Shown piece after piece: positions 3,024 through 6,327 of a stretch of DNA of 6,327 nucleotides (positions are counted from its first letter, which is position 1; every line of letters begins with the position of its first letter). The notes beneath the pieces were generated by a model. It was not told the DNA's origin. It was given only the letters and a program-made list of their open reading frames with translations, and did not search any database. Position numbers and translations under genes: made by a program. The DNA comes from a virus. The stretch is taken from the IMG/VR virus record IMGVR_UViG_3300045988_136181, positions 1-6,327 of that record; one strand, 5' to 3'.

Positions 3024-3111
3024 AACCTTAACAATTTAAATTAAACATTAAAAATATCAGAAACATAAAGCAACTGATTTCGAGTGCAATATTACAAAAA
3101 AAATAGATACA

Positions 3112-3139
3112 TTATAACATAAAGGACGTTATGTTAACA
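3112..3139. promoter_or_regulatory. dif-like tyrosine-recombinase core site (11-6-11): TTATAACATAA-AGGACG-TTATGTTAACA; candidate XerC/D-type attP, alternatively an operator or promoter palindrome
   Basis: Perfect 8-bp inverted arms TAACATAA (3115-3122) and TTATGTTA (3129-3136) are separated by a 6-bp spacer. The right arm matches 9 of 11 positions of the XerD arm of E. coli dif (TTATGTTAAAT, from memory). The left arm ends in CATAA, like the XerC arm. Confidence 0.4.
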
Positions 3140-3320
3140 AATATTAGTTGAATTTTACAATGTTTCACGTAAAATGCTATCTATAAAATAGCAAAACGAT
3201 TAAAGTGCATAAATTAGCACCGACATAAAGAAACTGATACGAATACAGTAAAAACGTTCCTCGCAAACGACCCTTATTAAGTCGGTGTCACTTTAACAGT
3301 AGATAAACTAGAGGGAACTG

Positions 3321-3345
3321 AATCGGTGGAAAGTAAACACCGATT
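3321..3345. other. Hairpin: 8-bp stem AATCGGTG/CACCGATT with a 9-nt loop
   Basis: Perfect inverted repeat read directly from the sequence. Confidence 0.7.
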
Positions 3346-3368
3346 TCGTAATATCTTATATAAATAAG

Positions 3369-3383
3369 GACTTTGAGATGATA
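3369..3383 (+). repeat. 15-nt direct repeat GACTTTGAGATGATA, copy 1
   Basis: Exact copy of 3567..3581, 198 nt away. Confidence 0.95.
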
Positions 3384-3402
3384 GCTAATGATAGCAGGCG
3401 AT

Positions 3403-3613
3403 TAGGGGCGTTGCCCCTATAACCTCACTTCCGGTCATCCGGAAGCGGAAGGAGCGGAAACTACGTTTCCTGTCTTATGGGGCGTTGCCCCAAGCCCCAG
3501 TTCCTTTGGCATTGCCCAAAGGAACCGAAAAGCTAGTGTTTTTCATAGTATCAAAGCCTATCGGGAGACTTTGAGATGATAAGCGGTCGGGCTCTACGAG
3601 CCGTTCACGACCG
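3403..3613. other. Array of six perfect GC-rich stem-loops (structured DNA or RNA element)
   Basis: Stems have no mismatches or wobbles. They are 3403-3419 (TAGGGGC GTT GCCCCTA), 3428-3445 (CTTCCGG TCAT CCGGAAG), 3456-3470 (GGAAAC TAC GTTTCC), 3478-3492 (TGGGGC GTT GCCCCA), 3500-3525 (GTTCCTTTGG CATTGC CCAAAGGAAC), and 3584-3613 (outer CGGTCG/CGACCG enclosing GGCTC TAC GAGCC with a 5-nt bulge). Confidence 0.8.
3567..3581 (+). repeat. 15-nt direct repeat GACTTTGAGATGATA, copy 2
   Basis: Exact copy of 3369..3383. Confidence 0.95.
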
Positions 3614-3627
3614 AAGCACAAAAGTAA

Positions 3628-3657
3628 ATAACTAATGATAACTAATGATAACTAATG
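3628..3657 (+). repeat. Tandem repeat, three perfect copies of ATAACTAATG (10-nt period); iteron-like
   Basis: Read directly from ATAACTAATG ATAACTAATG ATAACTAATG. The related ATGATAGC pair at 3378-3385 and 3388-3395 also has a 10-nt period. Confidence 0.9.
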
Positions 3658-3812
3658 AGTGTGCTAAAATCGGGAAAACAGAAGCAGAATGAAATAAAAT
3701 AATAAAAATACGTGCGTACAATCTATATATAAATATATATAAACAATACACACGCATAATAAAATTATAATAGTAAAACGACATACCAAAAATGGATTAT
3801 AAAGTCATTTTA

Positions 3813-4844: not shown

Positions 4845-4875
4845 AAAATTAAACAAAGCCCCCTAAAAAGGGGGC
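4845..4875 (-). terminator. Intrinsic terminator or attenuator between the 149-aa ORF and VP2
   Basis: The minus strand reads GCCCCC TTTTTA GGGGGC TTTGTTTAATTTT. This is an all-GC 6-bp stem (4858-4863 with 4870-4875), a 6-nt loop and a T-rich tail. The plus-strand reading has no T tract, so it is unidirectional for the coding strand. Confidence 0.55.
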
Positions 4876-5345: not shown

Positions 5346-6327
5346 TTAATTAGAATAAGGAAGACCATAACGGCTAAGGTTACGAGTAACATAAGCCATA
5401 TTAACCATTCCAACATACAATTTATCATCAGAAACAAGATAATTGTTCTGATTAACAAAGATACTGTTACATAAAGACGGTCGACAATTAAAGAGTTCTG
5501 GGGCAATCTGCATAGAAGAAAGATTATGACGGCAAATCTCATCAATCATATCAGAAGGAAGACCTGTAACCCAAGAATTCAGAGTAAAGCAAAAATCACC
5601 ATTATATTTATCGTAATTAGTCTTGTACTCAGAATATCGAGGGGCATAACCGTAGGACTTAATAAAATTTTGGTCATCGACAAAACCTACCCTAACACCA
5701 TCAAAAGAAGGTGCTTGAACCTCAAAAAGATAATTCTGCTGCATACCAATTGAATCCATTTCAGGGATAACAAAATCAGAAGCATCAGTCTTACAAAGAG
5801 AACGGTCAATTCCGATGTGAGCATAATCAAGGACAGGAGTACAACGATAAATGCCCATCACAACACCATAAGTATCGGCAGTAAACTTAATCTTAGAAGA
5901 ACCATTACCGATAGGAGAAGCTTTATAATCAGCTTGACCGTCACCAGAAAGATTTTGATTAACGATAGGATTAATATCAATCATAGAAGAAGAACCACCA
6001 ATAAAATAAGATGTATCATCAGCGTGTTTAGGCTTAACACCAAAATGAGCCTCAATCTGAGACGCAAAATCGATATCATTTGCCAACTGAATCTCCTTGT
6101 ATTTCTGAGCAGCATAAGCCTGACGAAGAGACAAGATAGACAGAGAAAGAGAATCAGCATCTATAATGTGAGAATGCCTAAGAGTATCAGTAGAAACACC
6201 AGAAGTAGAAGCAAGACTACCATAACGAGAACTTGAGGGATCTTTAGTAGTGACAACTGGAACACCAGAAGGAAAAGAATCAGAAGAACCTAAAGAAAAC
6301 CAAGAGTAACCATCTACATTAGTCTGA
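5346..6327 (-). CDS. VP1: Major capsid protein, C-terminal part (309 codons, 6272..5346, including the stop); 6273..6327 duplicates 1..55
   Basis: The track shows only 5346..6134 from an internal TTG. I checked codons 6135..6327 in the same frame and found no stop. The frame is in phase with 1..963 (927 + 963 = 1890 nt). The sequence reads ...LSILSLRQAYAAQKYKEIQ...GGSSSMIDINPIV...YGVVMGIYRCTPVLDY...YAPRYSEYKTNYDK...RYGLPYSN. Confidence 0.95.
   Translation of the reverse strand, partial: QTNVDGYSWFSLGSSDSFPSGVPVVTTKDPSSSRYGSLASTSGVSTDTLRHSHIIDADSLSLSILSLRQAYAAQKYKEIQLANDIDFASQIEAHFGVKPKHADDTSYFIGGSSSMIDINPIVNQNLSGDGQADYKASPIGNGSSKIKFTADTYGVVMGIYRCTPVLDYAHIGIDRSLCKTDASDFVIPEMDSIGMQQNYLFEVQAPSFDGVRVGFVDDQNFIKSYGYAPRYSEYKTNYDKYNGDFCFTLNSWVTGLPSDMIDEICRHNLSSMQIAPELFNCRPSLCNSIFVNQNNYLVSDDKLYVGMVNMAYVTRNLSRYGLPYSN
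6273..6327. repeat. Terminal direct repeat, copy 2 (identical to 1..55)
   Basis: Exact 55-nt identity with the window start. Confidence 0.95.

What the first reader, a model, noticed from the sequence alone, without database searches (positions are those of the whole stretch)
3396..3613. GC-rich island carrying an array of perfect hairpins inside an AT-rich microvirus genome
Six stem-loops of 5-10 bp, all perfect Watson-Crick with no G-T wobbles, are packed into about 210 nt. My hand count for 3396-3530 is 76 of 135 nt G+C (about 56%), against 20 of 60 in the first line of the capsid gene. Two hairpins share the core GGGGC-GTT-GCCCC (3479-3491 and 3405-3417). Two others share a TAC loop. GCCCC recurs at 3494-3498, which allows an alternative pairing. 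Microviridae package ssDNA, so the incoming strand must recruit host priming machinery through folded DNA. Known precedents are the phiX174 primosome assembly hairpin, the G4 primase-recognition hairpins, and the promoter-mimic hairpins of filamentous phage minus-strand origins. As far as I know, no such single-strand initiation signal has been described for Alpavirinae-like phages. This array is the best candidate in the genome. The absence of wobble pairs favours a DNA-level element over an evolved RNA fold, but a phage-encoded structured ncRNA remains possible.
Basis: partly seen in the sequence, partly recalled or inferred. Interest (0 to 1): 0.75.

Follow-up and report, generated by a model that had tools for sequence, protein, structure and literature searches.

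The report
Conserved hairpin array in gut microviruses
A GC-rich cluster of perfect DNA hairpins in the non-coding region of this small gut phage is a conserved, previously undescribed element shared by over 100 related phage genomes, and it most likely marks where the host starts copying the incoming single-stranded genome.

Summary
The island is not an isolated oddity. It belongs to a family of more than 100 distinct copies in 4-8 kb gut microvirus genomes and proviruses. Stems covary extensively, and two modules are nearly invariant: a hairpin tip and a 3' tail. The island is the best-conserved part of the non-coding region. It has no Rfam, tRNA or host-chromosome match.

New evidence on the strand: in all 112 microvirus carriers the element has one orientation. 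Its short loops read GNA/GNNA on the gene-sense (packaged) strand in 29 of 63 distinct hairpins and in none on the other strand. G-T pairs are essentially absent. cGNAg "mini-hairpins" are known at the G4, St-1 and alpha3 complementary-strand origins and at RSF1010 ssiA.

The same module occurs in an unrelated ~10.5 kb element that has an integrase and SSB but no microvirus Rep. That points to recognition by a host factor.

Best reading (about 0.5): a single-strand initiation signal on the packaged strand. Rivals are an ncRNA, or part of the Rep origin (10-nt iterons flank it). Function is untested.

The parts
3379..3402 (.). Upstream 10-nt repeats (ATGATAGCTA / ATGATAGCAG / GCGATTAGGG). The last repeat runs into hairpin 1. 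The conserved 5' motif GGCGATTAG lies at 3396-3404.
   Evidence: Repeat families D2/D4. Relatives have GGCGATAAC-NGGCGATTAG, AACGATAAC or CAACTAACGA x5 at the same place.
3403..3419 (-). Hairpin 1, TAGGGGC[GTT]GCCCCTA, followed by the conserved linker TATAACC (to 3424).
   Evidence: 100% paired with two-sided changes in relatives. In relatives with longer loops, the loop pairs with bases 3' of the linker. The window copy has a 3-nt loop and no such pairing.
3428..3445 (-). Hairpin 2, CTTCCGG[TCAT]CCGGAAG.
   Evidence: The homologous helix is 100% paired, with C-G<->G-C and C-G<->T-A swaps.
3456..3470 (-). Hairpin 3, GGAAAC[TAC]GTTTCC. On the gene-sense strand this is a C-G-closed GTA triloop (cGNAg mini-hairpin type).
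   Evidence: PMC13037366 for the loop type.
3478..3498 (-). Hairpin 4, TGGGGC[GTT]GCCCCA, plus a second GCCCC (3494-3498) that offers an alternative register.
   Evidence: The pattern G-run hairpin + A-rich linker + C-run recurs in family members.
3500..3525 (-). Terminal 10-bp hairpin, GTTCCTTTGG[CATTGC]CCAAAGGAAC. The tip TTTGG-CATTGC-CCAAA is invariant across the family, and the outer pairs covary.
   Evidence: 39 distinct arm pairs. Positions 1-9 are all Watson-Crick apart from one aberrant arm pair. T-A<->C-G swaps occur at 5 positions with no G-T or A-C intermediates.
3526..3552 (-). Near-invariant unpaired tail, CGAAAAGCTAGTGTTTTTCATAGTATC. The gene-sense strand reads ...CTATGAAAAACACTAGC...
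   Evidence: Recovered unchanged by a search that used only the 5' motif. The 3' module is 76-83% identical where the capsid gene is 66-68% identical at the DNA level.
3567..3581 (.). Second copy of the 15-nt direct repeat GACTTTGAGATGATA (first copy 3369-3383). It sits just before module 2. Relatives have GACTTTGAG(A/T)T(G/A)ATAAGCG here.
   Evidence: Family D11.
3584..3613 (-). Module 2. Outer stem CGGTCG/CGACCG encloses GGCTC[TAC]GAGCC and a 5-nt 3' internal loop. The inner loop is a C-G-closed GTA triloop on the gene-sense strand.
   Evidence: 15 distinct sequences, 98.1% of cells paired, 7 of 11 pairs changed on both sides, covariation score 0.712 against 0.152 in shuffles (0/500).
3628..3658 (.). 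Downstream 10-nt repeats, ACTAATGATA x3.
   Evidence: Families D4/D6. L234 has the same arrangement with CAACTAACGA repeats on both sides of the element.

Best explanation
The island is a single-stranded-DNA element that folds on the packaged (gene-sense, window minus) strand. It most likely serves as the initiation signal for complementary-strand synthesis.

Proposed steps:
1. After injection, host SSB coats the circle (inferred).
2. The cluster of perfect, G+C-rich hairpins stays folded and SSB-free (inferred). Several of these hairpins are capped by C-G-closed GNA triloops.
3. A host priming enzyme recognises two invariant parts, the hairpin tip TTTGG-GCAATG-CCAAA and the adjoining unpaired stretch CTATGAAAAACACTAGC. 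It then lays down an RNA primer that the replicase extends to give the double-stranded replicative form (inferred). The enzyme could be primase acting directly, as at G4 ori-c, or RNA polymerase, as at M13/Frpo.

Shown here: the structure, its conservation and covariation, the strand polarity of the loops, the absence of wobble pairs, the fixed orientation, and the presence of the module in a second, unrelated replicon.

Inferred: SSB exclusion, the identity of the enzyme, and priming itself.
For: 1. Real and highly structured.
2. Family of more than 100 distinct copies. It is the most conserved part of the non-coding region: identity to the window, averaged over 6 relatives, is 0.91-0.97 at 3431-3550 and 0.65-0.80 in the region upstream of the array.
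3. All 9 complete genomes found independently through the capsid protein (56-85% identity) carry it.
4. Stems covary and stay Watson-Crick. G-T is no commoner than any other mismatch.
5. Strand polarity: 29 of 63 distinct short hairpins have GNA/GNNA loops on the gene-sense strand against 0 on the other. In the rest of the same contigs the counts are 95 against 60 of 1163 (binomial 4e-9, Fisher 5e-6). With C-G closure and the looser 4-bp stem cut-off, the counts are 26 against 0.
6. Orientation relative to microvirus genes is identical in 112 of 112 carriers. Established knowledge of Microviridae is that the virion strand is the gene-sense strand.
7. GCGNAGC/GCGNNAGC mini-hairpins occur at the G4, St-1 and alpha3 complementary-strand origins and at RSF1010 ssiA, and they bind SSB poorly (PMC13037366).
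8. Carriers have Reps only 26-37% identical, and a ~10.5 kb element with integrase and SSB but no microvirus Rep carries the same module. This fits a host-read, portable cassette like plasmid single-strand origins.
9. No Rfam or tRNA match, no terminator, and no host copies outside proviruses.
Against: - There are no functional data of any kind.
- Loop-to-downstream pairings with covariation in relatives suggest a pseudoknotted fold. That is more familiar from RNAs than from known ssDNA origins.
- GNA triloops and perfect stems do not exclude an RNA of the same (gene) sense.
- Predicted folding energies show no strand preference.
- In the ~10.5 kb element the GNA-loop strand is antisense to the genes. 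It is unknown whether that element has a single-stranded stage, or which strand that would be.
- The cultured Bacteroides microvirus phiHBP1 has no copy, so the element is not required by all Bacteroidota microviruses.
- Flanking iterons suggest the Rep origin is at or next to the element, so the conserved parts could serve that function instead.
- There is no sequence similarity to any characterised origin.
Confidence: 0.5

Rival explanations
1. A structured non-coding RNA. One possibility is a stand-alone RNA transcribed antisense to the phage genes. That would be attractive for a temperate phage with no repressor gene, by analogy with P4 CI or P1 c4 immunity RNAs. The other possibility is a structured leader within the gene-sense transcript upstream of the small ORFs and Rep.
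For: - Multi-helix architecture of 150-220 nt with strong covariation.
- Pseudoknot-like loop pairings in relatives.
- An invariant T-run at the plus-strand 3' end, and TTTG-containing boxes (GACTTTGAG) before each module.
- Its orientation relative to genes differs in the ~10.5 kb element, as expected for an independent gene.
- Weinberg et al. note that ssDNA and RNA motifs cannot be reliably told apart by sequence (PMC5737381).
Against: - No Rfam hit, even at E<=10.
- G-U pairs are essentially absent in hundreds of covarying cells, which is unusual for an evolved RNA.
- The loops are triloops and GNNA rather than GNRA/UNCG, and their polarity places the meaningful strand in gene sense. This argues against an antisense RNA.
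- No good Bacteroidetes promoter (TTTG-N19-21-TAnnTTTG) lies upstream on the plus strand.
- The T-run is 12-16 nt from the last hairpin, so it is not an intrinsic terminator.
- A gene-sense leader role conflicts with the opposite gene orientation in the ~10.5 kb element.
Confidence: 0.2
2. Part of the Rep-dependent viral-strand origin (double-strand origin). The 10-nt iterons would bind Rep, and one invariant hairpin or the tail would present the nick site on the viral strand, as in rolling-circle plasmids and CRESS-DNA viruses.
For: - Iterons with a 10-nt period flank the element on both sides (3379-3402 and 3628-3658) and differ between lineages.
- The strand-specific features lie on the viral strand, which is the strand Rep must cut.
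- The invariant loop and tail resemble the conserved-nick-site plus variable-iteron logic of other HUH replicons (established knowledge).
Against: - The invariant parts stay the same although carrier Reps are only 26-37% identical.
- They also occur in the ~10.5 kb element, which has no detectable microvirus Rep.
- The phiX174-type origin needs no hairpin (established knowledge).
- The partial resemblance of AAAAACACTAG to the phiX174 origin (AATAACACTATAG, recalled from memory) is about what chance gives, by my own estimate, and was not pursued.
- Five or six hairpins are far more than a nick site requires.
Confidence: 0.15
3. A transcription terminator or mRNA-stabilising hairpin cluster at the end of the capsid-VP2 operon.
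For: It lies downstream of the last structural gene on the gene-sense strand. phiX174 uses intergenic hairpins this way (established knowledge).
Against: - None of the hairpins is followed by a T-run on the gene-sense strand.
- It lies 200-400 nt beyond the VP2 stop codon.
- Sequence-invariant loops and tail, and the second-replicon occurrence in opposite sense, are not expected for a terminator.
Confidence: 0.05
4. A passively acquired insert: a MITE-like or host-derived GC-rich block with no function for the phage.
For: - G+C content is foreign to the genome.
- A 15-nt direct repeat occurs at 3369 and 3567.
- The block occurs in two unrelated replicons.
Against: - A pattern scan of one genome from each of 185,579 species found two hits. 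One is a chance match inside a Capnocytophaga coding region, and the other is a microvirus-like 11-kb MAG contig.
- The large-contig copies examined lie in or at the ends of proviruses.
- The block is present in every complete capsid-relative and is more conserved than its flanks.
- The second repeat copy lies inside the conserved array, not at its edge.
Confidence: 0.03

Closest known systems
Primase-dependent complementary-strand origins of phages G4, St-1, alpha3 and phiK (ori-c)
   Same: A non-coding stretch of the packaged strand of a microvirus. It has a cluster of stable hairpins spanning roughly 150 nt, including C-G-closed GNA/GNNA mini-hairpins that resist SSB (PMC13037366).
   Different: - No sequence similarity.
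- Five or six hairpins in two modules rather than three.
- Relatives have loop-downstream (pseudoknot-like) pairings.
- The host is Bacteroidales, where priming signals are unknown.
- Priming is not demonstrated.
Single-strand origins of rolling-circle plasmids (ssoA, ssoU, ssoT, ssoW)
   Same: A 130-300 nt structured, orientation-specific non-coding module that is read by host enzymes. It is exchangeable between replicons with unrelated Rep proteins and dispensable in some relatives (established knowledge).
   Different: The defining ssoA motifs are not found on the relevant strand: RSB, and CS-6 (TAGCGT/A) in a terminal loop. It occurs in a phage genome rather than a plasmid, and in a different host phylum.
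M13/fd minus-strand origin and F-plasmid Frpo single-stranded promoters
   Same: Hairpins in entering ssDNA that recruit a host polymerase. The invariant hairpin stem contains TTTG, the core of both Bacteroidetes promoter boxes. In the ~10.5 kb element, and in L001 and L003, ORFs lie downstream in the direction such an RNA would run. Frpo is described in PMC11541004.
   Different: No full TAnnTTTG / TTTG pair can be reconstructed from the stems. The idea is untested.
phiX174 primosome assembly site (n'/PriA site)
   Same: An intergenic hairpin on the packaged strand that starts complementary-strand synthesis (PMC9865509 summarises this).
   Different: That site is a single ~55-nt hairpin recognised by PriA. 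There is no similarity in sequence or layout.
Predicted intergenic hairpins of reekeekee- and roodoodoo-microviruses (PMC9865509)
   Same: Conserved intergenic hairpins with compensatory changes in uncultured microviruses, proposed but not proven as the minus-strand origin.
   Different: Those are one or two simple hairpins in other clades. They show no shared sequence, no loop-polarity evidence, no multi-module array and no occurrence outside microviruses.

Membership tests
G4-type primase-dependent complementary-strand origin | Lies in a non-coding region of the packaged (viral) strand. | tested here: met
   Non-coding 3024-3812. Fixed orientation in 112/112 carriers. That the packaged strand is the gene-sense strand is established knowledge for the family and was not measured for this clade.
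G4-type primase-dependent complementary-strand origin | A cluster of very stable hairpins, including a GNA/GNNA mini-hairpin closed by C-G. | tested here: met
   On the gene-sense strand the window has C-G-closed GTA triloops at 3462-3464 and 3595-3597. Family-wide count is 29 against 0. Motif definition from PMC13037366.
G4-type primase-dependent complementary-strand origin | Sequence homology to G4/St-1/alpha3 ori-c. | tested here: not met
   A sensitive blastn of 3300-3700 against 50,697 phage records returned only six pig-faeces microviruses and a 32-nt Vibrio phage match.
G4-type primase-dependent complementary-strand origin | SSB-dependent priming by DnaG at a defined trinucleotide beside hairpin I. 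| not testable with these tools
   Needs an in vitro priming assay.
Rolling-circle plasmid single-strand origin (ssoA type) | RSB and the CS-6 hexamer TAGCGT/A in a terminal loop of the displaced strand. | tested here: not met
   Window loops are GTT, TCAT, TAC, GTT, CATTGC and TAC. TAGCG motifs in relatives lie on the strand opposite to the packaged one. The CS-6 consensus is recalled from memory.
Rolling-circle plasmid single-strand origin (generic) | An orientation-specific, structured module shared by replicons with unrelated initiators. | tested here: met
RNA-polymerase promoter-mimic origins (M13 ori(-), Frpo) | Hairpin stems that rebuild both promoter boxes of the host sigma factor. | tested here: inconclusive
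   The invariant stem contains TTCCTTTG (5 of 6 positions of TAnnTTTG) on either strand, but no convincing -33/-7 pair was found.
Any Rfam family, tRNA or tmRNA | A covariance-model or ARAGORN match. | tested here: not met
   Nothing within the island reaches significance at E<=10. The best nearby match is cow-rumen-4 at 3317-3376, 22 bits against a gathering score of 48.5. No tRNA or tmRNA.
Rolling-circle double-strand origin (nick hairpin plus iterons) | Iterated Rep-binding repeats next to a conserved nick motif on the viral strand. | tested here: inconclusive
   Iterons are present. The nick motif is unknown. The invariant parts are shared by replicons with 26-37% identical Reps or with no microvirus Rep at all.
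Intrinsic terminator | A G+C-rich hairpin immediately followed by a T-run on the transcribed strand. | tested here: not met
   Only two weak plus-strand matches, none on the gene-sense strand.
MITE or host-derived insert | Multiple copies in host chromosomes, and absence from otherwise collinear relatives. | tested here: not met

The most novel reading that the evidence does not exclude
The element is a portable, sequence-invariant, partly pseudoknotted single-stranded-DNA cassette. Bacteroidales priming or transcription machinery reads it on entering ssDNA. It is shared by temperate gut microviruses and by an unrelated, unclassified ~10.5 kb element with integrase, SSB and an M15 peptidase. 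If so, it would be the first single-strand initiation (or ssDNA promoter) signal defined for Bacteroidota. It would also mark that 10.5 kb element as a new replicon with a single-stranded stage.
Probability: 0.25. Interest if true: 0.8.

Novelty: new variant of a known kind. Interest (0 to 1): 0.6.

Why it matters
How microviruses outside the phiX174/G4 group convert their injected single strand into a replicative form is unknown. So are the priming signals of Bacteroidota. This family provides a concrete target: a 150-220 nt module with defined invariant bases, a defined strand, and natural variants, including a 75-nt minimal version in L003. It can be tested directly in vitro, or as an orientation-dependent single-strand origin in Bacteroides plasmids. 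These phages are abundant in human and pig guts and are temperate through a dif-like site next to the element. If the module is a portable host-read cassette, it would also be useful for building ssDNA vectors for gut Bacteroidales.

Tried and rejected
- **Rfam and tRNA searches:** nothing found.
- **Whole-genome megablast against GenBank phages:** no match.
- **Strand test by folding energy** (RNA and DNA parameters, 106 copies): no asymmetry.
- **Strand test by counting G-T against A-C in automatically found near-perfect helices:** 25 against 37, both similar to other mismatch types. The result is noisy and not decisive.
- **A closing helix between the 5' CTGGC/CTAGC and the 3' GCTAG:** variation on the 5' side is not matched on the 3' side, so I rejected it by inspection.
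- **The A-rich tail as an alternative partner or triplex strand for the last hairpin:** its A-run length tracks the stem, but the low-complexity sequence fits direct-repeat and mirror-repeat readings equally, so I left this open.
- **A conserved mini-ORF** (ATG AAA AAC ACT AGC = MKNTS...) on the gene-sense strand: reading frame and length change with stem indels, giving 13-24 codons with no conserved peptide beyond 5 residues. I judged it non-coding.
- **Resemblance of the tail to the phiX174 origin:** at chance level by my estimate.
- **attP copy of a host RNA gene:** rejected, because no host copies exist.
- **RNAalifold on a 270-nt group alignment:** it gave inconsistent long-range pairs on the two strands, so I did not use it.
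- **Identity of the ~10.5 kb element:** Pfam, PHROGs, NCBIfam and PDB sequence searches identified only integrase, M15 peptidase and SSB.
- **MAFFT alignment of the whole family:** not structurally consistent because the middle of the element is modular, so I analysed helices module by module.

Full report
**What the window is**

The window is a complete circular microvirus genome of 6272 nt with a 55-nt terminal overlap. Every substantial ORF lies on the minus strand. The genes are:
- a 629-aa major capsid protein (Pfam Phage_F);
- a 498-aa Rep (REP_ORF2-G2P);
- a 347-aa VP2-like ORF and small ORFs.

On the gene-sense strand the order is capsid, a 149-aa ORF, VP2, a 790-nt non-coding region (3024-3812), two small ORFs, then Rep. 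The finding lies in that non-coding region.

Six perfect hairpins sit at the stated positions. G+C of 3396-3530 is 76/135, against 36% for the genome. The GGGGCGTTGCCCC duplicate, the two TAC loops and the extra GCCCC are all there. The segment folds far better than dinucleotide shuffles on either strand: z = -5.65 as DNA on the minus strand and z = -4.72 as RNA on the plus strand, with 0 of 200 shuffles as good in each case.

**It is a member of a large family**

- The genome as a whole has no megablast match in GenBank phages. Pieces of the island, however, match pig-faeces microviruses.
- Pattern scans of IMG/VR and of metagenomes then recovered more than 100 distinct copies, almost all in 4-8 kb human or pig gut contigs.
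- Read on the window plus strand, the common plan is:
  - GGCGATTAG running into a G-rich hairpin, then the linker TATAACC;
  - one to three variable hairpins;
  - a hairpin with the invariant tip TTTGG-CATTGC-CCAAA;
  - a near-invariant tail (C)AAAGGCTAGTGTTTTTCAT(A/G)G.
- A 75-nt minimal form exists in L003.
- Many copies, including the window, have a second module downstream (window 3584-3613).
- A search seeded only with the capsid protein found 11 relatives. All 9 complete genomes (56-85% capsid identity) carry the element. The two that lack it are truncated contigs.
- Identity to the window, averaged over six relatives, is 0.91-0.97 at positions 3431-3550 and 0.65-0.80 in the non-coding region upstream of the array.
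- The 3' module is 76-83% identical where capsid DNA is 66-68% identical.

**The stems are real**

- For the terminal hairpin, 39 distinct arm pairs are Watson-Crick at positions 1-9, apart from one aberrant arm pair. T-A<->C-G swaps occur at five positions with no G-T or A-C intermediate.
- Module 2 is 98.1% paired in 15 distinct sequences. Seven of its 11 pairs changed on both sides, and its covariation score is 0.712 against 0.152 in shuffles (0/500).
- In 23 sequences of another architecture, hairpins 1 and 2 and a small tetraloop hairpin are 100% paired with two-sided swaps.
- In relatives with longer loops, the loop of hairpin 1 is complementary to the bases just after the linker. At least 4 nt match in 13 of 15 distinct combinations, against 11% when loops and downstream segments are cross-paired. 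The pair sets CTCC/GGAG, CTTC/GAAG, CTTT/AAAG, CTCG/CGAG, CACCG/CGGTG and TCAG/CTGA appear. GCAG/CTGC was seen by inspection of group-A copies.
- By inspection, the loop of hairpin 2 behaves similarly.
- The window copy has 3-4 nt loops and lacks these pairings.

**Which strand, and RNA or DNA?**

- Predicted energies do not distinguish the strands.
- The loops do. Among 63 distinct short hairpins (stem >=5 bp, loop 3-4 nt) in the element region, 29 have GNA or GNNA loops on the gene-sense strand and none on the other strand. In the rest of the same 110 contigs the counts are 95 and 60 of 1163 (binomial 4e-9, Fisher 5e-6). With a looser stem cut-off the counts are 40 against 3, or 26 against 0 when the closing pair is C-G.
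- In all 112 carriers that encode recognisable microvirus proteins, the genes lie on the strand that carries these GNA loops.
- By established knowledge of the family, the gene-sense strand is the one packaged.
- C-G-closed GNA/GNNA mini-hairpins are exceptionally stable in DNA and bind SSB poorly. They occur at the complementary-strand origins of G4 (GCGAAAGC) and St-1/alpha3 (GCGTTAGC), in RSF1010 ssiA (CCGAAGG), and in the phage N4 promoter hairpin (PMC13037366).
- The tetraloops seen here (GGTA, GGCA, GTTA) are GNNA rather than the RNA-typical GNRA.
- Together with the near-total absence of wobble pairs, this favours a DNA fold on the packaged strand. It does not prove it. Weinberg et al. 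stress that ssDNA and RNA motifs cannot be reliably told apart from sequence alone (PMC5737381).

**Who reads it?**

- Reps of carriers are only 26-37% identical, yet the hairpin tip and tail are invariant.
- The same module, sometimes in two tandem copies, also sits upstream of a small ORF and a tyrosine integrase in six collinear ~10.5 kb gut contigs. These also encode an M15 peptidase, SSB and two ~490-aa paralogues, but no detectable microvirus Rep or capsid protein.
- This argues that a host factor, rather than the phage Rep, recognises the invariant parts. It also suggests the module travels between replicons, as plasmid single-strand origins do.
- In those contigs the GNA-loop strand is antisense to the genes. 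Whether they have a single-stranded stage is unknown.

**What it is not**

- No Rfam family reaches significance, even at E<=10.
- There is no tRNA or tmRNA.
- No hairpin with a following T-run lies on the gene-sense strand.
- No host copies exist. A scan of one genome from each of 185,579 species gave only a chance coding match and a microvirus-like MAG contig.
- The copies I examined in large contigs lie inside or at the ends of integrated proviruses.
- The element is not universal. The cultured Bacteroides microvirus phiHBP1 has only about 208 nt of non-coding DNA and no copy (PMC13064476). Only five GenBank phage records carry the 3' module.
- The founding papers on Bacteroidetes microviruses do not mention hairpins or non-coding structure (PMC3091885 and PMC3394797). 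PMC9865509 predicts simple hairpins in other clades and leaves their role open.

**Context that complicates the picture**

- Ten-nucleotide repeats flank the element on both sides (3379-3402 and 3628-3658). Their sequence differs between lineages, for example CAACTAACGA x5 in L234. They look like Rep-binding iterons, so the viral-strand origin is probably adjacent, and part of the conserved sequence could serve it.
- A 15-nt direct repeat, GACTTTGAGATGATA, precedes each module. It remains unexplained.

**Verdict**

My estimates are:
- single-strand initiation signal on the packaged strand: about 0.5;
- ncRNA: about 0.2;
- Rep-origin component: about 0.15;
- the remainder goes to a terminator, a passive insert, or something not considered here.

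The element appears undescribed. It works like known ssDNA origins but is not homologous to any of them, so I file it as a new variant of a known kind.

Noticed in passing
window 3112-3139: A dif-like site: TTATAACATAA-AGGACG-TTATGTTAACA, with inverted 11-nt arms and a 6-nt spacer. It is the only such site in the genome. In L223, from a 33.8 kb human-gut contig, a related microvirus is integrated. Its junction with host DNA lies exactly at the homologous site (GGGACGTTATGTTAACAAATATTAG), next to a host alpha-galactosidase terminator. The window phage is therefore very probably temperate through XerC/D, as proposed in PMC3091885. Integration there would separate the small-ORF and Rep genes from everything upstream in the circle, including the hairpin array.
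   Followed up: partly
L204, L230, L227, L294, L212, L269 (for example L204 1-10538): An unclassified, collinear ~10.5 kb gut element. Gene order: hairpin element (1-2 copies), small ORF, tyrosine integrase, 142 aa, 480 aa, M15 peptidase, 160 aa, SSB, 135 aa, 496 aa. It has no detectable microvirus Rep or capsid protein and no Pfam, PHROG, NCBIfam or PDB identity for the large proteins.
   Followed up: partly
L001 1150-1820; L003 3540-3925: Two pig-faeces microviruses carry small ORFs (about 85 aa, two paralogues in L001) on the strand opposite to all the phage genes. These ORFs lie downstream of the element and are preceded by a textbook Bacteroidetes promoter (TTTG-N20-TACCTTTG). A nearly identical promoter precedes the small ORF in the 10.5 kb element (L294, about 1575-1605). 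Roux et al. call complementary-strand genes highly unusual in Microviridae (PMC3394797).
   Followed up: no
window 3317-3376: A separate hairpin, AATCGGTG[GAAAGTAAA]CACCGATT, gives a weak plus-strand match to Rfam cow-rumen-4 (22.4 bits, E 0.5, gathering score 48.5). Relatives have a different nested hairpin (GGCGATTG..CAATCGCC inside CGGTTTTCC..GGAAAACCG) at the same relative place.
   Followed up: no
window 3369-3383 and 3567-3581: A perfect 15-nt direct repeat, GACTTTGAGATGATA, 198 nt apart. One copy lies before the upstream iterons and the other before module 2. Relatives conserve GACTTTGAG(A/T)T(G/A)ATAAGCG before module 2. It contains a TTTG box. Its role is unknown.
   Followed up: partly
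window 3708-3757: An AT-rich imperfect palindrome, ATACGTGCGTAC..TATATATAAATATATATA..ACACGCAT (I2). Other family members have GCGCAT-TTATTTTATAT-GTGCG at the same relative position downstream of the element.
   Followed up: no
window 3532-3546, minus strand: The invariant tail contains a conserved ATG followed by AAA AAC AC(T/C/G) AGC on the gene-sense strand (MKNTS...). Two relatives differ only at the third position of the Thr codon. The ORF then runs into the hairpins with varying frame and length (13-24 codons), so it is probably not coding, but the pattern is curious.
   Followed up: partly
window 4858-4875: A second G+C-rich perfect hairpin, GCCCCC[TAAAAA]GGGGGC, lies between the 149-aa ORF and VP2. 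On the gene-sense strand it is followed by a T-rich run (TTTGTTTAATTTT), so it looks like an intrinsic terminator or attenuator inside the structural operon.
   Followed up: no
L007, L014, L023, L024, L039, L044, L054, L062 and others: The palindromic pattern ATTAGGGG-loop-CCCCTA(A/T)AACCCC is common in many unrelated large viral contigs, including giant-virus bins. There it is often repeated and sometimes lies directly after tRNA genes. These are not members of the family described here.
   Followed up: no
L303 (PV598014.1) 6195-6319 and 1-83: Bacteroides phage phiHBP1 is the first cultured Bacteroidota microvirus. It has only about 208 nt of non-coding DNA, with one hairpin (CCCGTCTATTCATAATGATGTGGTAGACGGG) and no copy of the element. 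It would be a useful contrast case for origin mapping.
   Followed up: partly
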